Source: Escherichia virus TH06. Taken from it: a DNA stretch of 64,000 nucleotides. Below, piece by piece: positions 5,431 to 62,231 of the stretch. The first letter of the stretch is position 1; each line of letters opens with the position of its first letter. The stretch lies in sequence record MT446386.1; one strand, written 5' to 3'. A program made the translations under genes and the position numbers. The notes beneath the pieces were generated by a model. The model ran no database searches, was not told the origin of the DNA, and was given only the letters and a program-made list of their open reading frames with translations.

Positions 5431-5439
5431 TAATGTATA
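5431..5439 (+). promoter_or_regulatory. TAATGTATA element, candidate promoter for the phage-encoded sigma factor
   Basis: Exact 9-mer 37 nt upstream of ATG 5476; same 9-mer recurs upstream of three other genes. Confidence 0.4.
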
Positions 5440-5475: not shown

Positions 5476-5793
5476 ATGGCAGATCATGTAGGAAAGAGAG
5501 ATTATGCACAAGAAAGACGTACCGCAATTGCCCGTGGTGAGACAGGCGTTGGGAGCAAGAGCGGAGATGCTCAGCGCCACCGTGCACGTCGCATCGTTGA
5601 AAAGCGCGATGGAAAAGCTGCTGTCAGAGGTAAAGACGTTGGACACAAACGAGCTGTCAAGTCTGGAGGCTCTAATGCGTCAAGCAACTTACGTGTTGAA
5701 TCAGTCAGCTCAAACCGTTCAAACGGCGGCAAAAGTGGTGATCGAGCTGGAAAAGCAGCTGGAGCACGCAAAGGAGCTTTAAGCTCATCGTAA
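5476..5793 (+). CDS. basic G/K/R/S-rich protein (105 aa); alternative overlapping frame 5504-5782 also open
   Basis: Strong RBS TAAGGAG 8 nt upstream; own upstream element and downstream terminator; locally GC-rich. Confidence 0.4.
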   Translation: MADHVGKRDYAQERRTAIARGETGVGSKSGDAQRHRARRIVEKRDGKAAVRGKDVGHKRAVKSGGSNASSNLRVESVSSNRSNGGKSGDRAGKAAGARKGALSSS

Positions 5794-16717: not shown

Positions 16718-16897
16718 ATGGGTAAATTTGATTATCGTTCATATGATGAAAACTACTCCAACCGTGAATCTCGTAAAGACCAAAAGATTAAACATCAACT
16801 GTTTGATCAGAGAACTGGTCGTATTCCTCGTGAGGGTAAGGTGAGCCATCGTGTAAACAAACGAGTTTGGGAAGAAGCTGATTATGGCGAAGTCTGA
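16718..16897 (+). CDS. small hypothetical protein (59 aa)
   Basis: ATG 16718 after AAGGA; fills gap before next gene. Confidence 0.35.
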   Translation: MGKFDYRSYDENYSNRESRKDQKIKHQLFDQRTGRIPREGKVSHRVNKRVWEEADYGEV

Positions 16898-17285
16898 GAA
16901 GACTCGCTGTAGTGGAATGTGGACTGAAGCTCGTTACAACTCTTTCATCAAGTCAGGGATTCGTTCTCTGACTAGAAAGTGGAAGCCCATGTTCGATGCA
17001 CTAGCAGACGCCAAGACAGAGCAGAAGATTAATCCAAAGACAGGTAGACTGGCAATGCACTTTAAGTGTGCCATGTGTGGTTCTGACCACCCTGTAAAGG
17101 ATATGGCTATTGACCACATAGAACCTATAGTTCCTCTTGACCACGAAGCAACTTGGGATGAGATCATCTCTCGTGCTCTGTGTGAGAAAGAAGGTTTTCA
17201 GGTTCTGTGTAAAGACCCTTGTCATAAGATTAAAACAAAAGAAGAGAATGATGCAAGAAAACAATTCAAAAAAGGAAATGAGTGA
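16884..17285 (+). CDS. HNH nuclease
   Basis: CAMCG...DMAIDHIEPI...CKDPCHKIK fits the HNH zinc-finger nuclease motif. Confidence 0.6.
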   Translation: MAKSEKTRCSGMWTEARYNSFIKSGIRSLTRKWKPMFDALADAKTEQKINPKTGRLAMHFKCAMCGSDHPVKDMAIDHIEPIVPLDHEATWDEIISRALCEKEGFQVLCKDPCHKIKTKEENDARKQFKKGNE

Positions 17286-17505
17286 TGATCAAAAATCTAC
17301 GCAACAAGTGCTTCGCTTTCGCTATCGCAATTGGAGAGGCGAGGTTTCTGACCGGTCCGTTATTCCACTCCGAACCTCCGTTGCTAGCTCCCGTTTTCAT
17401 AACGGTGGCAAACCTTGTTGGATTATGACAGCAATAGATGTAGAGAAAGATGAGATTCGAGAATTCAAACTCTCTGACATTATTCAGTATTATGATTTAA
17501 TCTAG
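17278..17505 (+). CDS. hypothetical protein (75 aa)
   Basis: Internal ATG 17278 of track ORF 17137, overlapping upstream stop. Confidence 0.4.
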   Translation: MSDDQKSTQQVLRFRYRNWRGEVSDRSVIPLRTSVASSRFHNGGKPCWIMTAIDVEKDEIREFKLSDIIQYYDLI

Positions 17506-17870: not shown

Positions 17871-20800
17871 TCACTCCTTAGGTCGAACTCTTACACGGAG
17901 TCTCGATTGACGCTTACTGCGTTCAAGCTTCTCTGACAATGAGCCACGTTTAATCTTCGGCTTCCCTTCGTCATTAAACTTCTCCAAGAACTGCAAGTAC
18001 TCAGTACGATTGGTTGTCTTGTAAGAAGGAATCTTAATATCAGGGTTCTCTTCAATTACACGTCTCATCTTCGCTACATCATCCCTACCAAGCAACTTAC
18101 TCTTAGCCTGTTCAGCTGTAGAACCAAAGATTTTCTCCAGTGCTCTGGATTTGTTACCACCTGCGGAAGAAGCACCAAGTTTAGCAATGGCAGAGTAATC
18201 ATCAGCACTAAACCAAGCTACTGGATTATCACCATACTTCTTCTTGTTTTCAGCAGCAGTCTGCAATGCACGTACAAAGCGACGGTTGTTACCAGCCTTA
18301 TCTGCACCATGAACCCTGTCTAAAACTTCAGCCACACTAACCAACTCATCCAAGCTTTTCCCACTCAAGAAAGCTTTCTCTACTTTATCAGCAAAGACCT
18401 CTTCCTGTTGTTTAATGCTTTCCAAGATATCAGAATTTGCTTGAGATCTTTCATCATCAGGCAGAGCAGAACGAATCTTCTCCATCTCCAACTCTTCCTC
18501 TTGCAGTTTCTTAATATCAGAGTCAACCTTCTGAGCCTCCTCAATAGCCTTCCTGGTATCCGCATCCAAGTTATCAAGCTTACCTTCAGTATCTCCAGTA
18601 ACCTTAACAATCTCTTTCTCGATAGGGGTCATTGATTCATACTTCTTAGCAAACTTCTCAACATCAGCTTCGATACGAGAACGAGCATTCTGATGTTCAG
18701 TAGGAGTCATAGGCTTCTCAAGAAGTGCATAACGGTTATCCATATAGGAACCAGCAAATGCTTCAGCATCCTCTCTAGATATGCCCTTATCTTCCATAGT
18801 ACGCATCAGGCGGCGATGAATGTCATCACGTTGACGTTGTACTGCCATAAGGTCATTCTCACGCTCTTGGGCCGCTTTAAGCTCTTCACTGCGCTTAACT
18901 CTCTTGTCCACATCAAACTTACGGTTCATTTCTTCCGCTTGCTCATACATCTTGTTCCACTTGGCCTGACGAGCATCTTCCTCTGCATCAGTTAAACGAC
19001 GCTGACGATCAAGGTAATCTGACTCGGCGTTGTGGATACGTTCAATGTAACTACGGAACTTCTCTGGAGGAACTGGAGAGTTCTTGTCATGGTGAGCAGC
19101 CAACTGTTTCAATGTACGAGATTCCTGAGCCTCACGAACAGGTTTAGGTAAACCTTCCATCATCTTCTCAATCTCACTCTTCTGAGCTGCAATAGCCTCT
19201 AGAGTTTTACGTTCATTCTCAACAGCAGCCTTAGCATCTGAACGAGCCTGAGCCTTTTTCCTGAGGGTAGCAAGACGTTCTTCACGAGCCTGTAAGTGCT
19301 TAGCAGCAGCTTCGTACTGAGAGTTCTTGTTAGCTTTGTTGAAGGCATTCACTTCTCTGTTGTAGGTGTTAATAAACCCATCCCAAATATCCTTCATCTG
19401 ACCGACTTCCAAAGCCTCTTCCCTACCAGCCTTCTCTGAAGATTTAAACTTCCCATCTACAAAGTCATTCATCAGCTTACGCATAGCATCTTTCTGAGCA
19501 GGACGTAAAGGTTCTGAATCAATCAAAGCATCAATCTCAGACTGAAGCTCTTTCTTCTGGTCAACCAGTTTAGGAGCATCTTTCTTATCGAAAGCTTTGT
19601 TCTCTTCTAGAGCTTGTTGGTACAGTCTATCAAACTCATCCTCACGCTGCTTCTGATACAACCTTTCAGCACGACGTTTCAGACTATCCAAGTTAGTTAC
19701 GTTCCCACCTAAACCTTTCTCTTCAGCACGTAATGCCTTAGTGGCAATGTCTTCTGGCAGACCACGTTCTTTAACCCATTCAGCAAAATTAGTTCGTACA
19801 GTGTTGTTCTTAGCAGTAGCAATACCTTGCTGAGAGGCCAGCTGGTTACGAGCCATTTCTTCATGACGTTCAGTATTGATAGCATTATCTTCCTGACGAA
19901 TACGACGCATCAGTTCCTTAGGATCGCCTTTATAAGCCAAGAAGTTTTCAGCAGTAGCTTTAGCTTTAGCAGCCTTAGAGTACAGAGAACGAGCAAAGCG
20001 TTCTGCACGATCTTTAGTAGCCTGACGAGCAGCACTAGACATAGCAGCTAAACGTTCTACACCACTTGCCGGTTTAACGTCCTGTACAGCTTCCTTAGGA
20101 GCTTTAGGAGCACGAGCAGGTAATGGCTCAGCTTTGACTGTTGGTTCCTCTACGGTTGGTTCTGGAGCCTGTGCGGCCTCTTCTTGAGCACGTTGCTGTT
20201 CCATTGCACGACGCTCCTCTAGAGGGTTACGAGCAGGGAGAGGTTCAGCCTGTGGAGCTTGTTCGACCGGAGCTTCTTGAGCTGCTGCTGCCTCTTCTTC
20301 AGCGCGACGCTGTTCAGCCTGACGGATAGCGCGTCTTTGCGCAACTAAATCACGAGCTGTGAGAGGGGTTTCTTGAGGAGTAGAAGAAGGAAGATTTTCT
20401 TCCGTCACAGTACTAGAAGAAGGCTCCCGAACCGGTTCGGTTTCCACGTCATTTTGCGTCTTAAATTTAATGTCATCAACAACTGGTTCTTCTTCCATCT
20501 TAGCACGAGCTTCATCAGCAGTAGATTTAGCACGAGCAACTTCCAAATCACCACGAGCCAGAGAGCGGATAGCTTCACTATTAGACTCTTGTTGCTTAAC
20601 ACGTTGAGAACGGGCACGCTGAGAAGAGAAGCGATTCAGAGCATATTTAGCAGCACCGAGAGTGTTCATCACCAGACTAGGAGAAGAAGCCTCACGGAAT
20701 CCATCATCAGTCAAGGAAGTCCAACCACGATCTTGGTTGCTCATGAATTTAGCTGTATTGTTCAGAGTGTAAGCATCTTGAATAGGATTAAAACCTTCAG

Positions 20801-22292
20801 GCATACCTTTCAGTTTCTTCAACCCACCGATAGCTTTCTTCATCTCTGGAGAAACATTATCAGCCATCTTCTGTAGTTCAGTAGCTTTCTCTACAAAGTT
20901 ATTAAAATCTTCACCTTCACGAGCTTTGAATCGATTTGCTTCATTGTAGAAAGTCTTGTAAGCATCAATGAAATCACGGTCAGCTTGTGTACGATTCTTA
21001 ATATCAATCGGACTACCAGTAAAATCACCAGAAGCTCGGAGAGAAGTTAATTCACGGTCTAGGTTATCTAGAACATCTGTAAGAGCTTTCGTGTTGTCTT
21101 TGGTGTAGTCAGCCATTGCATCCTTCATAGCAACAGCCTGCTTCTGGTTGTGCTCATTATCAGCAAATGCTTTACCACGAGTCTTAGCAGGAGAAGCTAA
21201 AGGATTAAGGCCCGGAATGTTGGAATGTTCTTTCTGAACAGAAGCAGCTTTCTCAGCACGAACTTGGTCAGTATTAAGAATACGCTGAGCAGCAGGAGAA
21301 TCTACAGCAACAGCATCTGTAATACGGAATCCATTCTCATCCAGAAGGTTAAGAGCAGAAGCAGCGTTAGCAGTTTCAGCTTTAGAGTAAGCTTCTTTCA
21401 GTTCATCAATATTCTTAGCACTACGAATTAGTTCATCATCAGCAGCAATATCAGTCTTCGCATACTCTGGAGTATTCTTGAAGACAGCAGAATCCGGACG
21501 GCTAATCAAACCATGAACCCCACCAACTGCACCACCGAATGCAGCACCCATAGCACCTTCTTCGATAGCACCTTCTAATACATTGGCAAAGGTTGTGTCA
21601 TCTCCGTGCTTATTCTGAGCTTCAGCAGCACCCACAAGAGCACCACCTTTAGCACCAGCCACTGCGTTACTAGCAACGTTCTGACCAATACGTCCAAGTG
21701 TGGACTCAGCTGTACCGACAGCACCTGGAAGGATTCTCTGAGCCGCATAGTTAGCACCACCAACTAAGGCTGCATCTAGAATAGACTTATCTTCTCCCTC
21801 TTCAGGGGTTTGGTCTGCATATGCACGACCTGTCTCACGACCTGCGATGATAGCAGCAGCAGCCAATGGGTTAGCAACTGTCAAACCGATATCACCAGCA
21901 ACGCCAGCATACTGACCGACAGTTTTACCAATCCCATCCTCAATCTTATCCATACGTTCTTTCAGAAGGTTCTGAGAGTTCTCTTGGATACGCTTACCAT
22001 AACTAGTTTGTGCTCCAGCTAGATTCTCACCAATCTCAACTAAACCACCAATACCTTTAGCAGCACTAGCTGCAATATTTGCACCACCAGATTGAAGAGC
22101 ATTTGACACACCTTGAGCAAACTCACCTATAGCACCACGTTCTTCTTGTTGTGGTTGTGCTACTGGTTGTTCCTCAGGAATAGAGCCACCTGCTGCCTTA
22201 TATTGTTCTCTCATTTGAGCTTGTTGCTCCGGAGAGGCATTCAGATACGCAGGAGCTTTGGAAGCTTCTTCCCACGGTTTAATGTTAGCCAT
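17871..22292 (-). CDS. large virion protein (1473 aa), coiled-coil and Ala/Glu-rich; internal virion/ejection protein or tape-measure-like
   Basis: Start moved to MANIKPW (ATG at 22292) 6 nt after GGAGACG; last gene of the late block. Confidence 0.5.
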   Translation of the reverse strand: MANIKPWEEASKAPAYLNASPEQQAQMREQYKAAGGSIPEEQPVAQPQQEERGAIGEFAQGVSNALQSGGANIAASAAKGIGGLVEIGENLAGAQTSYGKRIQENSQNLLKERMDKIEDGIGKTVGQYAGVAGDIGLTVANPLAAAAIIAGRETGRAYADQTPEEGEDKSILDAALVGGANYAAQRILPGAVGTAESTLGRIGQNVASNAVAGAKGGALVGAAEAQNKHGDDTTFANVLEGAIEEGAMGAAFGGAVGGVHGLISRPDSAVFKNTPEYAKTDIAADDELIRSAKNIDELKEAYSKAETANAASALNLLDENGFRITDAVAVDSPAAQRILNTDQVRAEKAASVQKEHSNIPGLNPLASPAKTRGKAFADNEHNQKQAVAMKDAMADYTKDNTKALTDVLDNLDRELTSLRASGDFTGSPIDIKNRTQADRDFIDAYKTFYNEANRFKAREGEDFNNFVEKATELQKMADNVSPEMKKAIGGLKKLKGMPEGFNPIQDAYTLNNTAKFMSNQDRGWTSLTDDGFREASSPSLVMNTLGAAKYALNRFSSQRARSQRVKQQESNSEAIRSLARGDLEVARAKSTADEARAKMEEEPVVDDIKFKTQNDVETEPVREPSSSTVTEENLPSSTPQETPLTARDLVAQRRAIRQAEQRRAEEEAAAAQEAPVEQAPQAEPLPARNPLEERRAMEQQRAQEEAAQAPEPTVEEPTVKAEPLPARAPKAPKEAVQDVKPASGVERLAAMSSAARQATKDRAERFARSLYSKAAKAKATAENFLAYKGDPKELMRRIRQEDNAINTERHEEMARNQLASQQGIATAKNNTVRTNFAEWVKERGLPEDIATKALRAEEKGLGGNVTNLDSLKRRAERLYQKQREDEFDRLYQQALEENKAFDKKDAPKLVDQKKELQSEIDALIDSEPLRPAQKDAMRKLMNDFVDGKFKSSEKAGREEALEVGQMKDIWDGFINTYNREVNAFNKANKNSQYEAAAKHLQAREERLATLRKKAQARSDAKAAVENERKTLEAIAAQKSEIEKMMEGLPKPVREAQESRTLKQLAAHHDKNSPVPPEKFRSYIERIHNAESDYLDRQRRLTDAEEDARQAKWNKMYEQAEEMNRKFDVDKRVKRSEELKAAQERENDLMAVQRQRDDIHRRLMRTMEDKGISREDAEAFAGSYMDNRYALLEKPMTPTEHQNARSRIEADVEKFAKKYESMTPIEKEIVKVTGDTEGKLDNLDADTRKAIEEAQKVDSDIKKLQEEELEMEKIRSALPDDERSQANSDILESIKQQEEVFADKVEKAFLSGKSLDELVSVAEVLDRVHGADKAGNNRRFVRALQTAAENKKKYGDNPVAWFSADDYSAIAKLGASSAGGNKSRALEKIFGSTAEQAKSKLLGRDDVAKMRRVIEENPDIKIPSYKTTNRTEYLQFLEKFNDEGKPKIKRGSLSEKLERSKRQSRLRVRVRPKE

Positions 22293-22330
22293 AACGTCTC
22301 CTTTTATAAATAAAAATGTCCTACCCCCTA

Positions 22331-22339
22331 TATACATTA
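22331..22339 (-). promoter_or_regulatory. TAATGTATA element (minus strand)
   Basis: Plus-strand TATACATTA, about 39 nt upstream of start codon at 22292. Confidence 0.4.
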
Positions 22340-38589: not shown

Positions 38590-39339
38590 TTATACACGAG
38601 AAGTACGAATACCATAAATATCAGGCAAGCTGCTCTGAAGTCGAGTCATGTTATTCGGAATTGCGATAGGTGAACCTGAGTACTCTTGTTTCTTATTCTG
38701 TTCTACCATTTCATCAAGGATAGCTTTTCCTAATGCTGACCATTTCTGAACACCATTATCATCTTGAACAAAGAGACAAGCATGACGTAGGGTGAAGTAC
38801 AGAAGAAGTTCTGGTGCTATAGTAAGAATAGTACTAGTATCTGTATCTTCATGGAATTCCGGTGGGTCTGCATAATAGCTAAGAATCACTGAGTTTTCTG
38901 CTGGAATCAAAGGGCTTCCATCATCAGGGTAGTACGGAGTATCTGCTTCGATGCTAGGGTAGAAAATGAAACGACTACCGAAACGAGCAAAGTTGACAGG
39001 TTGGTTATTCCAGTGAGATGGGTTAATTGTTCCATGCTGTCTACGATAGCTAATCTCTTCAGGAGAGGTTACTTGGAAGATTGTGCCATCTTTGGCTCTC
39101 ATCATCCATTGAGCTTCTAAGTAATCAGGAGGAATGTAAGCTACTCCATCTTTAATATCTAAATACACTTCTTTTTCCAGAGGAGGAATACGTAAGTTAC
39201 GATAAATCTCTTTCTCTGCAAAGTTAATAAAGTTTGGAATTTGATTAACAAATTCGTCATCGTCCCTATCTGCCCAGAGGGCCACGGCCTTCTTTAGCCA
39301 CCCATAGGTATTGATGGGGTATTGAACGTCAGGCAACAT
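38590..39339 (-). CDS. virion protein, possible head-tail adaptor (249 aa)
   Basis: Start moved to internal ATG after GGAAGGAGG; position between capsid and fiber genes. Confidence 0.35.
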   Translation of the reverse strand: MLPDVQYPINTYGWLKKAVALWADRDDDEFVNQIPNFINFAEKEIYRNLRIPPLEKEVYLDIKDGVAYIPPDYLEAQWMMRAKDGTIFQVTSPEEISYRRQHGTINPSHWNNQPVNFARFGSRFIFYPSIEADTPYYPDDGSPLIPAENSVILSYYADPPEFHEDTDTSTILTIAPELLLYFTLRHACLFVQDDNGVQKWSALGKAILDEMVEQNKKQEYSGSPIAIPNNMTRLQSSLPDIYGIRTSRV

Positions 39340-51591: not shown

Positions 51592-51619
51592 TTGACATGA
51601 TTTTCCTTTATAGTAATAT
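51592..51619 (+). promoter_or_regulatory. sigma70-type promoter P1 (TTGACA, 16 nt, TAATAT)
   Basis: Consensus -35, A-rich upstream tract; homologous to P0 over about 60 bp. Confidence 0.5.
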
Positions 51620-51797: not shown

Positions 51798-51826
51798 TTG
51801 ACACCAGAAAAAGCCTGATACATAAT
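51798..51826 (+). promoter_or_regulatory. sigma70-type promoter P2 (TTGACA, 17 nt, CATAAT)
   Basis: Followed by GAGCACTCA, shared with P4. Confidence 0.5.
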
Positions 51827-51858
51827 GAGCACTCATTCAGCGATGAATCAAAACATCC

Positions 51859-51872
51859 CGCTCTTTAAAAAT
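51859..51872 (+). repeat. conserved box CGCTCTTTAAAAAT, copy 2
   Basis: Exact 14-mer. Confidence 0.4.
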
Positions 51873-52127
51873 ATGATTTGTCTTACAGGTGGCGGTAACG
51901 TCATTACTATAAGGCGCTTAGTTGATCGCTAGAATTGATTCCTGATTCATACGTGAATAGGCGGACGAAGAGCAACAAAATAAGCCTCATTTGTTCGATA
52001 CTTTCAAATGGTCGATGCTTGAAAGCGCACTAGATTCCTAAAAGACAAATCAGACTTATCATCTTGCCCTTTCGCAAAGATTCAAGCGAGATAAGGGAAC
52101 GGAATAAAAGAAGATGATAAAAAGAGT

Positions 52128-52155: not shown

Positions 52156-52168
52156 GTAAATGCTCCAC

Positions 52169-52182
52169 CGCTCTTTAAAAAT
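52169..52182 (+). repeat. conserved box CGCTCTTTAAAAAT, copy 3
   Basis: Exact 14-mer. Confidence 0.4.
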
Positions 52183-52285
52183 ATGAATCATAAGTTTAAG
52201 CCTCACCGCTTAATCCTCAATCAAATAAAGCTGATTGATATATCCTCCCAATAGCGGGAACGACGAAAAAAGATTAAAAAAGTGG

Positions 52286-52314
52286 TTGACAGCGAAAACA
52301 ACATGATTCATAAT
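52286..52314 (+). promoter_or_regulatory. sigma70-type promoter P4 (TTGACA, 17 nt, CATAAT)
   Basis: Followed by GAGCACTCA as in P2. Confidence 0.5.
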
Positions 52315-52404
52315 GAGCACTCACTAAGCAAATCACCGCTTCAGTGAAAAGCGCAACAACGGCTAACAGTTGCATAGCGTGAGAAAGCACGCTGATAGGT
52401 TTAC

Positions 52405-54961: not shown

Positions 54962-55405
54962 GTGGCTAAATCAAAAATCAGCATGAAGGGCGGGCGTTGT
55001 TTTGCTATCTCTGAACTGGAGAAAGAGAAGCCAAAGGCAACCAATCACGTCAGCAAGCGTAGTTTAAAACGTCGTGCTGCAAAGGCTGAGGCTGAATCTC
55101 ATGTTCCTTCTAGTATACCTAAGCGCGTAGGCCATCGCGTTCATCGTGCTGATGCGTTATTGTTAGCTGATCATAAACGATCTTTGTTACAGAGCGGGGG
55201 CGCTAAAACAGAAGAAGAGAAGAAGTTAGAAATCTTCTGTAATGGTCGCACCCGTGGTAAACAGAAGTTTAAGGGTAGCACGAAAGACCCGCAGGCTTTC
55301 CCTAAGACAAGCCAATGCGCACCTGATGTTTTCTACGCAGACAGTAAACATAAATGGGGCGTTGAGAAATACATTGACCCCATCAAAGAGGCAAGGGTTA
55401 AGTAG
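54962..55405 (+). CDS. basic hypothetical protein (147 aa)
   Basis: GTG start after AAGGAA; K/R-rich. Confidence 0.45.
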   Translation: MAKSKISMKGGRCFAISELEKEKPKATNHVSKRSLKRRAAKAEAESHVPSSIPKRVGHRVHRADALLLADHKRSLLQSGGAKTEEEKKLEIFCNGRTRGKQKFKGSTKDPQAFPKTSQCAPDVFYADSKHKWGVEKYIDPIKEARVK

Positions 55406-55422
55406 TAGGAATATAGCCCCTC

Positions 55423-55439
55423 TTTTAGTACTATGACGC
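55423..55439 (+). repeat. conserved 17-nt motif TTTTAGTACTATGACGC, copy 1
   Basis: Identical 17-mer also at 62143-62159; contains palindrome TAGTACTA; followed by a hairpin. Confidence 0.4.
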
Positions 55440-55484
55440 TCTTTCTGTAGCGTCGTGCCCTCTCCCCATTTGAAGATTCCGCAT

Positions 55485-55507
55485 AGCCGCCTTTGAGCGG
55501 CTTTTTG
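55485..55507 (+). terminator. rho-independent terminator
   Basis: AGCCGC-CTTTGA-GCGGCT followed by TTTTT. Confidence 0.55.
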
Positions 55508-55569
55508 CGTTGCTGTAAGTGCATTTGCGAGTGTATTTATAGCAACGGTCATGTGTTGCTTTCAGGTTT

Positions 55570-55596
55570 GCCCCGGCTACGGCTGGGGCTTTTTTA
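55570..55596 (+). terminator. rho-independent terminator
   Basis: GCCCCGGC-TACG-GCTGGGGC followed by TTTTTT. Confidence 0.65.
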
Positions 55597-55644
55597 TGCC
55601 CGTAAAACAGGAGGTATCAAGTTCTGATAACAACGGCCCAGCTA

Positions 55645-56034
55645 ATGTTGACATTGACTATTTATTATGAGGCAGGGAATCAGCCAACCGCATGTAAGGC
55701 TTTAGTTGCGGATACCGTAATAAATAGAATGGCACAACGAAAACTGACCGCTGAACAGGTGATAAGACAAAAGAACCAGTTTGAGTGGATTCCGGTACTA
55801 TTAAAACAGGAGAAACCTTATAAACGTTATGTAAAGCTGATTCGTGATAAAAATCCGATGACTAAGCAAGCCATTGGAGAAAGCGAGCGGCTAGCTAAAC
55901 GTGCCCTTAAGAAGAATTATGTTCCGCTTTATAGTGGGACTTACTTTCAGAGTAAGAGCGAAGGGGTGCCAAAATGGTATGCCAATCCTATGTATTGTGG
56001 TGATTTAGTGTTCGATAATAGCTCTAGGGAATAA
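55645..56034 (+). CDS. cell wall hydrolase, SleB-like (Hydrolase_2-type) domain protein
   Basis: LTLTIYYEAGNQPTACKALVADTVINRMAQ...QKNQFEW resembles the SleB-family N-terminal signature. Confidence 0.5.
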   Translation: MLTLTIYYEAGNQPTACKALVADTVINRMAQRKLTAEQVIRQKNQFEWIPVLLKQEKPYKRYVKLIRDKNPMTKQAIGESERLAKRALKKNYVPLYSGTYFQSKSEGVPKWYANPMYCGDLVFDNSSRE

Positions 56035-56233
56035 TCTCTAGTGCCAGATTTAACAAACTAAATTCCTTTATAAACCAACCACTTAGTAAATTTATTGAAA
56101 AAGATGGTAGTATTCTGGGACTATGGGTAATGCTCTGTATATAGACCCTTTGAAAATTTCTTAGAAAATAAGTTTACTAAATATAACTTACTTAAATAAT
56201 ATTACTTTTAATCTCTGATAAAGGGTAAATAAT

Positions 56234-62000: not shown

Positions 62001-62142
62001 GAAAACAAATGAGACGTAAAGCATATTCTTATGACGATATGATTAACCAGAAAGGCTTCGGTCAACGACAGCCTGACGGTTCAATTATCTGGTTCGTAAA
62101 CGGACAGAAAAAGGTAGCTAAATAGGCTCTCTTCTCTCCTCC

Positions 62143-62159
62143 TTTTAGTACTATGACGC
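62143..62159 (+). repeat. conserved 17-nt motif TTTTAGTACTATGACGC, copy 2
   Basis: Identical to 55423-55439; followed by hairpin TGCGTAG...CTACGCA. Confidence 0.4.
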
Positions 62160-62231
62160 CTCTCTGTGGGCGGCCCAATTTGCGTAGGGAATTCCCTCTA
62201 CGCAGCCATAACTTTTTAAGGAATTTCCCCT

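What the first reader, a model, noticed from the sequence alone, without database searches (positions are those of the whole stretch)
55423..55439. Identical 17-nt motif TTTTAGTACTATGACGC at two loci, each followed by a hairpin
The 17-mer occurs at 55423 and 62143, both 15-20 nt after a stop codon and preceded by CCTC. It contains the palindrome TAGTACTA and is followed by a stem-loop (GACGC...GCGTC at the first copy, TGCGTAG...CTACGCA at the second). An exact 17-nt repeat is very unlikely by chance in 64 kb; it may be a binding site for a dimeric regulator or a transcript boundary signal.
Basis: seen in the sequence. Interest (0 to 1): 0.45.

Follow-up and report, generated by a model that had tools for sequence, protein, structure and literature searches.

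The report
Conserved phage DNA nick-site motif copies
The repeated 17-mer is real and contains the short sequence TACTATGAC, at which related Pseudomonas phages carry site-specific single-strand breaks in their packaged DNA. This phiEco32-like coliphage keeps only three conserved copies of it, so it could be a simple system for working out what such nicks are for.

Summary
CTTTTAGTACTATGACGC (18 nt) occurs exactly at 55422 and 62142. A diverged third copy, TTCTAGTACTGTGACGG, lies on the minus strand at 20402-20418, inside a late gene.

The window is a phiEco32-like Kuravirus. The part conserved across Kuravirus clades and in Suseptimavirus SU7 is TACTRTGACG. The palindrome TAGTACTA is not conserved.

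That core equals the published nick consensus TACT/RTGMC (GTACTATGAC, WACTRTGAC) of LUZ24-like phages. Those phages share about 14 core genes with phiEco32.

The same motif, or the variant TACGGTGAC, is strongly over-represented and strand-biased in the other relatives examined: 7-11, A24, LAh_8, PhCF1.2 and LUZ24. It sits mostly on the sense strand and is densest at the early-gene end. The three Kuravirus sites follow that layout.

The only nuclease-like core gene apart from the terminase and the 5'-3' exonuclease is a 105-aa divergent HNH protein (phiEco32 gp58, window 5476-5793). It is the most conserved of the shared proteins and has its own phage-sigma promoter. I propose it as the nickase.

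Nicking in Kuravirus and the enzyme assignment are both inferred, not shown. The readings as a promoter, a terminator or a dimeric operator are not supported.

Verdict: a new member of a known kind, and a useful lead.

The parts
55422..55439 (+). Site 1. Exact 18-mer CTTTTAGTACTATGACGC; conserved core TACTATGAC at 55429-55437, followed by GC. The predicted nick lies between 55432 and 55433 (TACT^ATGAC). Intergenic, 17 nt after the stop codon of the gp120-like ORF (54962..55405).
   Evidence: Searches give the sequence. One search shows the core conserved in phiEco32 (as TACTGTGAC), NJ01, Paul, KBNP1711, ECBP2 and SU7 while the upstream flank changes. The nick position is inferred from phage tf (PMC3517423).
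62142..62159 (+). Site 2. Second exact copy of the 18-mer; core TACTATGAC at 62149-62157. The predicted nick lies between 62152 and 62153. Intergenic, 17 nt after the stop codon of the gp94-like ORF (62009..62125) and 73 nt before the next start codon (62232).
   Evidence: Conservation across clades is shown.
20402..20418 (-). Site 3. TTCTAGTACTGTGACGG on the - strand; core TACTGTGAC occupies 20412 down to 20404. The predicted nick lies between 20409 and 20408. It is inside the large last late gene (ORF 17871..22337, the phiEco32 gp26 homologue), on its sense strand, and encodes S-T-V-T.
   Evidence: In one search, TACTGTGACGGAAGA is identical in phiEco32, NJ01, KBNP1711 and SU7 although the surrounding codons diverge. 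The preceding codon changes amino acid (AGT, GCT, ACT) yet keeps its third-position T.
55435..55454 (+). Small inverted repeat GACGC-N10-GCGTC whose 5' arm is the 3' end of the site-1 motif. This is lineage-specific context, not part of the conserved core.
   Evidence: -11.5 kcal/mol, z = -3.9. In one search it is retained in most Kuravirus and SU7 lineages and lost in KBNP1711 site 1. One search shows no general hairpin at sites in LUZ24, PhCF1.2 or LAh_8.
62157..62172 (+). Weak counterpart hairpin at site 2: CGCCU(62157-62161) pairs with GGGCG(62168-62172).
   Evidence: -7.4 kcal/mol, z = -0.5. In one search the 3' arm switches between GGCG and GCGTC according to the base that follows GACGC.
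5476..5793 (+). Candidate nickase gene: a 105-aa divergent HNH protein (phiEco32 gp58 homologue, phrog_4590). This assignment is inferred, not shown.
   Evidence: it is the most conserved protein shared with LUZ24, PhCF1.2 and 7-11 (59-70% identity); invariant H57, N71, L72, N80; 24 of 32 family members hit Pfam HNH; a beta-beta-alpha model whose fold hits are almost all HNH nucleases, but with non-significant E-values.
5431..5439 (+). Exact match to the phiEco32 gp36-holoenzyme promoter consensus TAATGTATA, 37 nt upstream of the candidate nickase start codon. It implies middle or late expression.
   Evidence: The consensus is taken from PMC8948821.

Best explanation
The two 17-mers, and a third diverged copy at 20402-20418 on the minus strand, are the Kuravirus copies of a conserved recognition sequence, TAC(T/G)RTGAC(G).

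In the related LUZ24-like Pseudomonas phages this sequence marks site-specific single-strand interruptions of virion DNA, cut as TACT^RTGAC on the motif-bearing strand. I infer the following.

1. In this phage a phage-encoded nickase recognises the asymmetric core and nicks the sense (non-template) strand at 55432/55433, 62152/62153 and, on the minus strand, 20409/20408.
2. The nickase is most likely the 105-aa divergent HNH protein encoded at 5476-5793.
3. That gene is expressed from its own phage-sigma promoter, so nicking would happen in the middle or late phase.

Shown here:
- the sequence identity with the published nick consensus;
- conservation of the three sites;
- common ancestry of the phage groups;
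- the family-wide enrichment, strand bias and layout of the motif;
- the HNH character and core-gene status of gp58.

Inferred, not shown:
- that Kuravirus DNA is actually nicked at these sites;
- that gp58 is the enzyme;
- what the nicks are for.

The small hairpins next to sites 1 and 2 are lineage-specific neighbours, not part of the signal.
For: 1. The core TACTATGAC / TACTGTGAC equals 5'-TACT/RTGMC-3', mapped at 14 ligase-sealable nicks in phage tf. It also equals the main predicted site of LUZ24 and PaP3 (PMC3517423). It matches GTACTATGAC at read pile-ups in P1-14Or01 (PMC3634792) and WACTRTGAC at 13 strand-specific Nanopore coverage drops in Rembedalsseter (PMC11780129). A given 18-mer would contain this 9-mer consensus by chance with probability of about 3e-4 (my calculation).

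2. Across Kuravirus clades and Suseptimavirus SU7 the invariant block at all three orthologous sites is TACTRTGACG. R switches between A and G, as the consensus allows, and the flanks diverge.

3. phiEco32 and SU7 each have exactly these three sites in the whole genome.

4. phiEco32 shares terminase, portal, capsid and tail proteins, DNA polymerase, primase-helicase, exonuclease and a four-gene amidoligase block with LUZ24, PhCF1.2 and 7-11.

5. Counts of TACTRTGAC on the + / - strands, against 0.3-0.9 expected per strand: LUZ24 9/0, PhCF1.2 6/0, 7-11 1/11. A24 and LAh_8 instead use acTACGGTGAC, at 1/8 and 2/5. The motif is among the most frequent 9-mers in these genomes.

6. Layout. Sites lie on the sense strand of local genes, are densest at the early-gene end, and include one sense-strand site in the late cluster in 7-11, A24, LAh_8 and phiEco32. 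In LAh_8 and phiEco32 that site is in the same giant last late gene, at a T(T)VT codon run.

7. gp58 is the most conserved of the shared proteins and the only nuclease-like core gene apart from the terminase and the 5'-3' exonuclease. It is HNH-like. It occurs in 253 phage records that cover these same groups, about the same number as the 242 records with a full-length polymerase match (overlap of the two lists was not checked). It is preceded by an exact TAATGTATA promoter.
Against: - No experimental or read-level evidence for nicks in any Kuravirus was available. The literature search found none.
- In Kuravirus the motif is not over-represented: 3 sites against about 1.2-1.5 expected.
- The sites are not all on one DNA strand, unlike in tf, LUZ24, T5 and phiKMV.
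- Two of the three sites are intergenic with an adjacent hairpin. That is not typical of the family and could point to an additional or different RNA-level role.
- The HNH assignment rests on weak profile hits (best E = 7.5e-5 to HNH_3; the window protein itself has no Pfam hit). Fold matches were non-significant (E > 1), from a model of only moderate confidence (pLDDT 66).
- gp58 is a clade-wide core gene, so its co-occurrence with the motif cannot be separated from shared ancestry. No close out-group lacking it exists.
- A more distant homologue-bearing phage, Pra-JY27 (44% identity), has no such motif in the 50 of 65 kb examined.
- The test of HNH residue 30 (G or K) against motif position 4 was inconclusive.
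Confidence: 0.62

Rival explanations
1. RNA-level element. The motif plus its downstream hairpin acts in the early mRNA as a 3' boundary, a weak terminator or attenuator, a processing site or a stabiliser.
For: - Sites 1 and 2 each lie 17 nt after a stop codon.
- Each is followed by a small stem that uses GACGC. The stem is retained in 7 of 8 lineage-sites, and its 3' arm changes to match the base after GACGC.
- In SU7, ECBP2 and KBNP1711 some stems are followed by T-runs, and SU7's authors annotated a terminator over site 1.
- Two good terminators follow site 1.
Against: - The conserved block is the single-stranded-looking TACTRTGACG, not the stem.
- The stem is lost at KBNP1711 site 1 and is weak at site 2 (z = -0.5).
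- There is no U-run after either stem in this window.
- The third conserved copy is inside a gene.
- In 7-11, A24, LAh_8, PhCF1.2 and LUZ24 most copies are intragenic. Downstream hairpins are not general: none in LUZ24, PhCF1.2 or LAh_8, and only slightly more stable downstream folding in 7-11 and A24.
- No Rfam family matches.
Confidence: 0.1
2. Same motif family, but the primary function is replication priming or an origin signal read by the conserved T7-like primase-helicase. The complementary strand reads 5'-GCGTCAYAGTA, which contains the GTC that T7-type primases recognise. The nicks would then be unsealed junctions rather than products of an HNH nickase.
For: - The primase-helicase belongs to the same shared core set.
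- The motif is strand-specific and polar, as priming sites would be.
- The complement contains GTC. That T7-type primases recognise GTC is established knowledge of T7 gp4, recalled and not tested here.
Against: - T7-type primases recognise 3-5 nt, not a 10-11 nt block.
- The published nick lies within TACT^RTGAC, not at the position a GTC-primed RNA would start.
- The nicks are simple 3'-OH/5'-P breaks sealable by ligase and are present in more than 90% of tf virions (PMC3517423).
- A conserved dedicated HNH protein is available as an explanation.
Confidence: 0.1
3. Promoter element. TACTAT would be a -10-like hexamer for host sigma70 or for the phage sigma factor gp36.
For: - TACTAT has the key T-12, A-11 and T-7 bases of a -10 hexamer.
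- A true early promoter at 51592-51619 has a similar -10 region, TTATAGTAATATGAATC, with 4 mismatches to the 17-mer.
Against: - There is no -35 element at either copy, and the promoter scan does not call them.
- The gp36 consensus tAATGTAtA is different, and its exact matches lie elsewhere: 5431, 12074, 12146, 22331 and 39875.
- Site 1 is followed by two terminators before the next gene.
- The motif is abundant in LUZ24 and PhCF1.2. The sigma factor is not among the genes phiEco32 shares with them.
- Most copies in relatives are intragenic.
Confidence: 0.04
4. Operator for a dimeric transcription regulator that binds the palindrome TAGTACTA.
For: - TAGTACTA is a perfect 8-bp palindrome, present in both copies.
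- Relatives annotate a D5-like transcriptional-regulator gene in the same early region.
Against: - The left half-site is not conserved: caacTACTA, tagcTACTA and taacTACTA at the orthologous sites.
- TAGTACTA also occurs at 38829 and 48200 without the rest of the motif. With one mismatch allowed, its count is at chance level: 27 observed against 31.8 expected.
- The conserved part is asymmetric.
Confidence: 0.03
5. A chance repeat with no function.
For: - 12.5% of simulated windows contain some exact 17-mer direct repeat.
- The count of the core 9-mer is near expectation.
Against: - All three sites are conserved across genera while their flanks diverge.
- The core is identical to an independently published functional motif.
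- Relatives show family-wide enrichment of the motif.
Confidence: 0.02

Closest known systems
Localized single-strand interruptions at 5'-TACT/RTGMC-3' in LUZ24-like (Bruynoghevirus-type) Pseudomonas phages: tf, P1-14Or01, Rembedalsseter
   Same: - The core sequence is identical (TACTATGAC or TACTGTGAC), and G or GC also follows it in most LUZ24 copies.
- The phages are related, sharing about 14 core genes.
- Sites are concentrated in the early-gene arm on the sense strand.
- Positions are conserved among relatives.
   Different: - There are only 3 sites per 77 kb, near the chance count, against 8-14 per 45 kb.
- The sites are not all on one DNA strand: orientation follows the gene direction in both arms.
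- Two of the three are intergenic with an adjacent small hairpin.
- The upstream flank is TAG or AC rather than G.
- Nicking has not been demonstrated in any Kuravirus.
Nick-associated consensus sequences of T5 (R/GCGCRGG) and phiKMV-like phages (CGACNNNNNCCTA/CTCCGG)
   Same: The concept is the same: a short asymmetric sequence that marks strand-specific nicks in packaged DNA, with unknown function. The nicks are non-essential in T5, and in phikF77 they are repaired early and reappear late (PMC3517423).
   Different: The sequences and the phage lineages are unrelated. No homology is implied.
Small stand-alone HNH nucleases (Pfam PF01844 / PF13392), for example the Gme HNH nicking endonuclease (PDB 4h9d) and the McrA-type HNH domain
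   Same: - gp58 has the H...N...N beta-beta-alpha signature.
- 24 of 32 family members hit Pfam HNH.
- Nearly all fold hits are HNH domains, aligning about 30 residues at roughly 1 A rmsd.
   Different: - There are no zinc-binding cysteines.
- A unique invariant N-terminal motif, RGETGVGSKSGDAQRHRARR, is present.
- The window protein itself has no significant Pfam hit, and no PDB sequence relative was found.
- PHROGs lists the family (phrog_4590) as of unknown function.
phiEco32 gp36-dependent middle/late promoters (tAATGTAtA)
   Same: Both are short, single-element, low-copy conserved motifs in the same phage genome.
   Different: The sequence and the locations differ. [quoted passage not shown]

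Membership tests
TACTRTGMC / WACTRTGAC nick-associated motif of LUZ24-like phages | The sequence matches the published consensus. | tested here: met
   TACTATGAC at 55429 and 62149 (+), and TACTGTGAC at 20412-20404 (-). The consensus is from PMC3517423 and PMC11780129.
TACTRTGMC / WACTRTGAC nick-associated motif of LUZ24-like phages | A physical single-strand break after the fourth base in virion DNA (ligase-sealable, strand-specific). | not testable with these tools
   This needs denaturing gels with and without ligase, primer-extension run-off, or native Nanopore strand coverage of Kuravirus DNA. No such report was found.
TACTRTGMC / WACTRTGAC nick-associated motif of LUZ24-like phages | The motif is over-represented relative to chance. 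| tested here: not met
   Window: 2 + 1 sites against 0.6 expected per strand. phiEco32 and SU7: 3 each against about 1.5. The feature is met in the relatives 7-11 (11 on one strand), LUZ24 (9), PhCF1.2 (6), and A24 and LAh_8 for the TACGGTGAC variant.
TACTRTGMC / WACTRTGAC nick-associated motif of LUZ24-like phages | All copies lie on one DNA strand. | tested here: not met
   Two copies are on + and one on -. All three are on the sense strand of the local genes. The same rule holds in 7-11 (12 of 12), A24 (10 of 10) and LAh_8 (6 of 7).
TACTRTGMC / WACTRTGAC nick-associated motif of LUZ24-like phages | Sites are conserved at corresponding genome positions among related phages. | tested here: met
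   All three sites are present at orthologous positions in phiEco32, NJ01, KBNP1711 and SU7, and sites 1 and 2 also in Paul and ECBP2, with diverged flanks.
TACTRTGMC / WACTRTGAC nick-associated motif of LUZ24-like phages | The host phage belongs to the lineage that carries the system. | tested here: met
   About 14 core genes are shared among phiEco32, LUZ24, PhCF1.2 and 7-11, including the gp58 HNH at 59-70% identity. 253 phage records carry gp58 homologues and 242 have a full-length polymerase match; both listings show the same phage groups, though record-level overlap was not checked.
Intrinsic (rho-independent) terminator | A G+C-rich stem-loop immediately followed by a U-run. | tested here: not met
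   The stems at 55435-55454 and 62157-62172 are followed by GTGCCC and GCCCAA. The terminator scan calls 55485-55502 and 55570-55589 instead.
sigma70 promoter or phiEco32 gp36 promoter | A -35/-10 hexamer pair at 16-18 nt spacing, or the single element tAATGTAtA. | tested here: not met
   Neither site was called by the promoter scan. The exact TAATGTATA matches lie elsewhere.
Palindromic operator of a dimeric regulator | Both half-sites are conserved in relatives. | tested here: not met
   The TAG half-site is replaced by AAC or AGC in KBNP1711, ECBP2 and SU7.
HNH endonuclease (for the candidate nickase, window 5476-5793) | A beta-beta-alpha-metal fold with a catalytic His and conserved Asn residues, and a significant profile match. 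| tested here: inconclusive
   H57, N71, L72 and N80 are invariant. The model has a beta-beta-alpha element at residues 53-81, pLDDT 66. 24 of 32 members hit PF01844 at E <= 1, with a best hit of 7.5e-5 to PF13392. The window protein has no hit itself. Foldseek hits are nearly all HNH domains but at E > 1.

The most novel reading that the evidence does not exclude
The 105-aa divergent HNH protein (phiEco32 gp58, phrog_4590, window 5476-5793) is the so-far unidentified site-specific nickase behind the TAC(T/G)RTGAC nicks. The system would be ancestral to a whole super-group of podophages: Bruynoghevirus, Kuravirus/Suseptimavirus, Grimontviridae, Lahexavirus and PhCF1.2-like phages.

Its sites are placed by a common rule: sense strand, densest at the early-gene end, and one site in the late arm. 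Enzyme and site specificity co-evolve: position 4 is T in some lineages and G in others, possibly tracking SKSGDA versus SKSKDA in the protein.

Kuravirus, with only three sites and an E. coli host, would be the minimal tractable model for finding out what phage genome nicks do.
Probability: 0.4. Interest if true: 0.75.

Novelty: new member of a known kind. Interest (0 to 1): 0.58.

Why it matters
Site-specific nicks in packaged phage DNA have been known since T5, but no function or enzyme is reported in the papers read here (PMC3517423, PMC11780129).

If the three Kuravirus sites are nicked, the system exists in a well-studied E. coli phage group (phiEco32) in its smallest form. Three sites and one candidate 105-aa enzyme with its own promoter are few enough to mutate one at a time.

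The comparative result also extends the motif well beyond the Pseudomonas phages in which it was described, to Salmonella, Cronobacter, Aeromonas and Photobacterium phages. It shows a specificity variant (TACGGTGAC). It also gives a placement rule, sense strand and early end, that any functional hypothesis must explain.

Practically, nick sites cause read pile-ups and strand-specific coverage drops. These can mislead terminus calling and assembly of such phage genomes.

Tried and rejected
- **Rfam** search of 48-64 kb at E <= 1: only the tRNA and a sub-threshold MicX-like hit downstream of site 1; nothing at the motifs.
- **Promoter reading**: no -35 element, and the gp36 consensus lies elsewhere.
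- **Palindrome as operator**: TAGTACTA with one mismatch allowed is at chance frequency, and its left half is not conserved.
- **Larger duplicated cassette around the two copies**: similarity ends after about 31 nt; flank alignments are not significant (p = 0.75 upstream, 0.38 downstream).
- **boxA-like reading of CGCTCTTTC at copy 1**: absent from copy 2, so dropped.
- **Mini-ORFs starting at the ATG inside the motif** (MTLFL* at site 1; 28 aa at site 2): TACTGTGAC variants lack the ATG, so treated as incidental.
- **Other nickase candidates**: the HNH-AP2-type genes (phiEco32 gp30/gp31; window 16884..17285) have no significant homologue in LUZ24 (E = 0.17) and are not in the shared core.
- **Covariation of HNH residue 30 with motif position 4**: LAh_8, A24 and contig L110 (Lys) use G; contigs L111 and L112 (Lys) have TACAATGAC; the Gly-type contigs gave too few sites. 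Inconclusive.
- **Distant homologue-bearing phage Pra-JY27**: no TAC..TGAC motif in the 50 of 65 kb examined.
- **PDB sequence searches with the protein and with the profile**: no hits.
- **Close out-group lacking gp58, as a negative control**: none exists; the next polymerase relatives are T7-like phages.
- **Primary phiEco32 papers** (Savalia 2008, Pavlova 2012): not held in the library. The gp36 consensus is therefore taken from PMC8948821.
Full report
**Observation**

The 17-mer TTTTAGTACTATGACGC is present exactly at 55423-55439 and 62143-62159 on the + strand. The exact repeat is 18 nt, starting with the preceding C. Gapped similarity runs over about 31 nt, CCT(C)CTTTTAGTACTATGACGC(T)CTyTCTGT, and the flanks beyond are unrelated.

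Both copies begin 17 nt after a stop codon: the ORFs end at 55405 and 62125.

Copy 1 is followed by GACGC-N10-GCGTC (55435-55454), which folds at -11.5 kcal/mol with z = -3.9 as RNA. Copy 2 has a weak counterpart at 62157-62172 (z = -0.5).

Search with three mismatches found a third copy, TTCTAGTACTGTGACGG, on the - strand at 20402-20418.

The repeat alone is only moderately unlikely. 25 of 200 Markov simulations of the window contain some exact 17-mer direct repeat. The case that it is real rests on comparative data.

**What the window is**

It is a phiEco32-like podophage, genus Kuravirus, subfamily Gordonclarkvirinae, 92-95% identical to many E. coli phage records.

From phiEco32's annotation:
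- the + strand from 49.4 to 64 kb is the early cluster;
- the + strand from 1 to 17.5 kb is the middle (replication) cluster;
- the - strand from 17.9 to 48.2 kb is the late structural cluster.

Sites 1 and 2 lie after the gp120-like and gp94-like early ORFs. Site 3 lies inside the gp26-like giant late gene, on its sense strand.

**What is conserved**

phiEco32 and SU7 (a different genus, Suseptimavirus) each contain exactly three TACTRTGMC sites in the whole genome, and they are the orthologues of the three window sites.

Sites 1 and 2 were compared in the window, phiEco32, NJ01, Paul, an IMG/VR contig, KBNP1711, ECBP2 and SU7.
- The invariant block is TACTRTGACG.
- R is A or G. phiEco32 site 1 and both KBNP1711 sites have G.
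- The upstream flank changes: ttttag, caac, tagc, taac.
- The palindrome TAGTACTA therefore does not survive.
- Within one genome the two early sites share their flank variant. That suggests concerted evolution with whatever reads them.

At site 3, TACTGTGACGGAAGA is identical in phiEco32, NJ01, KBNP1711 and SU7, in a poorly conserved part of the protein. The preceding codon changes amino acid (AGT, GCT, ACT) but keeps the third-position T that starts the motif. This points to selection on the DNA sequence itself.

**Identity of the core**

TACTATGAC and TACTGTGAC are the published nick consensus of LUZ24-like Pseudomonas phages.
- 5'-TACT/RTGMC-3' was mapped at all 14 ligase-sealable single-strand interruptions of phage tf, and TACTATGAC is the main predicted site in LUZ24 and PaP3 (PMC3517423).
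- GTACTATGAC lies at eight read pile-ups in P1-14Or01 (PMC3634792).
- WACTRTGAC lies at 13 strand-specific Nanopore coverage drops in Rembedalsseter, and is enriched in 60 relatives (PMC11780129).

LUZ24's nine copies are all on one strand. Eight are followed by G and several by GC, as in the window.

The phages are genuinely related. phiEco32 shares terminase, portal, capsid protein, two tail proteins, 5'-3' exonuclease, DNA polymerase and its separate exonuclease subunit, primase-helicase and a four-gene amidoligase block with LUZ24, Photobacterium phage PhCF1.2 and Salmonella phage 7-11.

**The motif in the wider group**

Counts of TACTRTGAC on the + / - strands, against 0.3-0.9 expected per strand:

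| Genome | + strand | - strand |
|---|---|---|
| LUZ24 | 9 | 0 |
| PhCF1.2 | 6 | 0 |
| 7-11 | 1 | 11 |
| window | 2 | 1 |
| phiEco32 | 1 | 2 |
| SU7 | 1 | 2 |

In 7-11, CTACTGTGA is the most frequent 9-mer of the genome.

Aeromonas phage LAh_8 and Cronobacter phage A24 lack the T-form almost completely. They carry the variant (tt)acTACGGTGAC(g), at 2/5 and 1/8 on the + / - strands. It is again among their top 9-mers, and A24 keeps one TACTATGAC.

Reading the sites against the annotations gives a common layout.
- Sites are on the sense strand of the local genes: 12 of 12 in 7-11, 10 of 10 in A24, 6 of 7 in LAh_8, 6 of 6 in PhCF1.2, 8 of 9 in LUZ24.
- They are densest at the early-gene end.
- 7-11, A24, LAh_8 and phiEco32 each have one sense-strand site in the late arm. 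In LAh_8 and phiEco32 it is in the same giant last late gene, at a T(T)VT codon run.

The Kuravirus sites follow this layout: two early and one late, all on the sense strand. They are few, so the count alone is not significant.

I found no report of this motif, or of nicks, in Kuravirus, Gordonclarkvirinae or 7-11-like phages.

**Candidate enzyme**

None of the papers read names the nickase.

Among the core genes shared by all four lineages, the only nuclease-like one besides the terminase and the 5'-3' exonuclease is phiEco32 gp58, at window 5476-5793. It is 105 aa and is also the most conserved shared protein, at 59-70% identity where the others are 24-63%.

Evidence on its nature:
- PHROGs lists it as phrog_4590, function unknown. 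Pfam gives no hit for the window protein.
- An alignment of 32 homologues shows invariant H57, G64, N71, L72 and N80, plus an invariant N-terminal RGETG.GS.S.D..RH.ARR motif.
- 24 of 32 members hit Pfam HNH and 12 hit HNH_3, with a best E of 7.5e-5.
- The AlphaFold model (pLDDT 66) has a beta-beta-alpha unit at residues 53-81.
- Its Foldseek hits in the PDB are almost all HNH domains (McrA, Cascade-HNH, Gme nicking endonuclease). All have E > 1, so this is supportive only.

Homologues occur in 253 phage records, covering Kuravirus, Bruynoghevirus (including Rembedalsseter), 7-11-like, Cronobacter, Proteus, Aeromonas, Vibrio and Photobacterium phages. That is about the same number as the 242 records with a full-length match to the polymerase; I did not check how far the two lists overlap.

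The gene is preceded by an exact TAATGTATA (5431-5439), the consensus of phiEco32's gp36-holoenzyme promoters. This fits middle or late expression. In phikF77, nicks are reported to be repaired early in infection and to reappear late (cited in PMC3517423).

The two phages that use TACGGTGAC have SKSKDA where the others have SKSGDA. Metagenomic contigs gave one supporting case (L110, aacTACGGTGACg), one different variant (TACAATGAC), and too few sites otherwise. I count this as a weak lead only.

**Mechanism I commit to**

The core TACTRTGACG is the recognition site of a phage nickase, most likely gp58. It cuts the motif-bearing (sense, non-template) strand after TACT, at 55432/55433, 62152/62153 and 20409/20408. 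Packaged genomes would then carry three fixed single-strand breaks.

- Shown: motif identity, conservation, phylogenetic context, family-wide enrichment, strand rule, and the HNH character of a core protein.
- Inferred: nicking in Kuravirus, the enzyme, and the timing.
- Unknown: the biological role.

The sense-strand rule would be expected if nicks must not lie in the template strand of transcribed DNA. The clustering at the early end recalls the published packaging and ejection ideas. Neither point was tested here.

**Rivals**

- **RNA-level boundary or hairpin element.** The stems next to sites 1 and 2 are mostly retained, and the 3' arm changes to fit the base after GACGC. But there is no U-run here. 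The stem is lost at one orthologous site. The third copy, and most copies in relatives, are intragenic. Hairpins are not general at sites in other genera. Rfam finds nothing.
- **Promoter.** There is no -35 element, the gp36 consensus is different, two terminators follow site 1, and the motif is abundant in LUZ24 and PhCF1.2, with which phiEco32 does not share its sigma factor.
- **Dimeric operator.** The half-site is not conserved.
- **Primase or origin signal** using the GTC on the complementary strand. This cannot be excluded, but it fits the length of the motif and the mapped nick position poorly.
- **Chance.** Excluded by the conservation.

**Verdict**

The finding is real. It is best filed as a new member (Kuravirus) of a known kind, the TACTRTGAC nick-associated motif. 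Two defining features are not met in this genus: over-representation and single-strand exclusivity. The key feature, the physical nick, is untested.

The comparative extension to several other phage families, the TACGGTGAC variant, the sense-strand and early-end placement rule, and the gp58 HNH candidate appear not to have been described. They make an old open question experimentally approachable in an E. coli phage.

Noticed in passing
window 51858-51876 and 52168-52186 (+): An exact 19-mer direct repeat, CCGCTCTTTAAAAATATGA. It contains CGCTCTTTAA, which resembles the boxA element of rrn and lambda nut antitermination sites (resemblance recalled, not tested). Both copies lie in the early-promoter region next to strong sigma70-type promoters.
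   Followed up: no
window 51821-51835 and 52309-52323 (+); promoters at 51798-51826 and 52286-52314: Two near-consensus sigma70-type promoters (TTGACA-17-CATAAT) share an exact 15-mer, CATAATGAGCACTCA, covering the -10 element and the start region. They look like duplicated early promoters.
   Followed up: no
window 5431, 12146 (+); 12074, 22331, 39875 (-): Five exact matches to the phiEco32 gp36 promoter consensus TAATGTATA. They lie upstream of the gp58-like, gp40-like, gp26-like and gp13-like genes. The one at 22331-22339 overlaps the first ATG of the long ORF 17871..22337, which suggests the true start codon is further downstream, as annotated in phiEco32.
   Followed up: partly
window 55471-55597 (+): Between two good intrinsic terminators (55485-55502 and 55570-55589) there is a promoter-like TTGCTG-N18-TATTTA, with a TG two bases upstream of the TATTTA, and a sub-threshold MicX-like Rfam hit (25.8 bits, E = 0.034). 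This may be a small non-coding transcript just downstream of site 1.
   Followed up: no
L099+L100 (Salmonella phage 7-11, NC_015938): acTACTGTGACg occurs 11 times on the strand that is the sense strand for the early and middle genes and once on the late-gene sense strand, against about 0.8 expected per strand. CTACTGTGA is the genome's most frequent 9-mer. Neither of the two promoter-hunting papers read on this phage mentions it.
   Followed up: partly
L105+L106 (Aeromonas phage LAh_8) and L108+L109 (Cronobacter phage A24): These phages use a variant motif, (tt)acTACGGTGAC(g), in place of TACTRTGAC. Their gp58 homologues have SKSKDA where T-type phages have SKSGDA, which may be a specificity determinant.
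   Followed up: partly
window, whole: One-mismatch variants of TACTRTGMC are somewhat under-represented: 31 observed against 45.8 +/- 7.6 in shuffles, and 98 of 100 shuffles had at least 31. This is reminiscent of the scarcity of near-sites noted for phage tf.
   Followed up: no
GenBank records PE006, NJ01, MN03, PGN6866; window about 55550-56090: Several independently deposited Kuravirus genome records begin 80-650 nt downstream of site 1 rather than at the phiEco32 termini. This could come from copying one reference's orientation, or from a coverage anomaly near a nick. Not resolved.
   Followed up: no
window 16884-17285 and 17137-17505 (+): At the end of the middle cluster there is an HNH endonuclease ORF (phrog_3106) that overlaps an ORF with a WYL-domain hit (E = 1.8e-4).
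   Followed up: no
L107 (Planktothrix phage Pra-JY27, first 50 kb): This 69% G+C phage has a distant gp58 homologue (44% identity) but no TAC..TGAC motif. It does have ATCCGGTTCA(G) 12-18 times on one strand against 2-4 on the other.
   Followed up: no
Literature (PMC11990801): The BASEL collection paper notes that Gordonclarkvirinae are remarkably resistant to restriction-modification systems despite having no known DNA modification pathway. They share the conserved amidoligase, dCTP deaminase and nucleotidyltransferase genes seen here. Any link to the nick system is untested.
   Followed up: no
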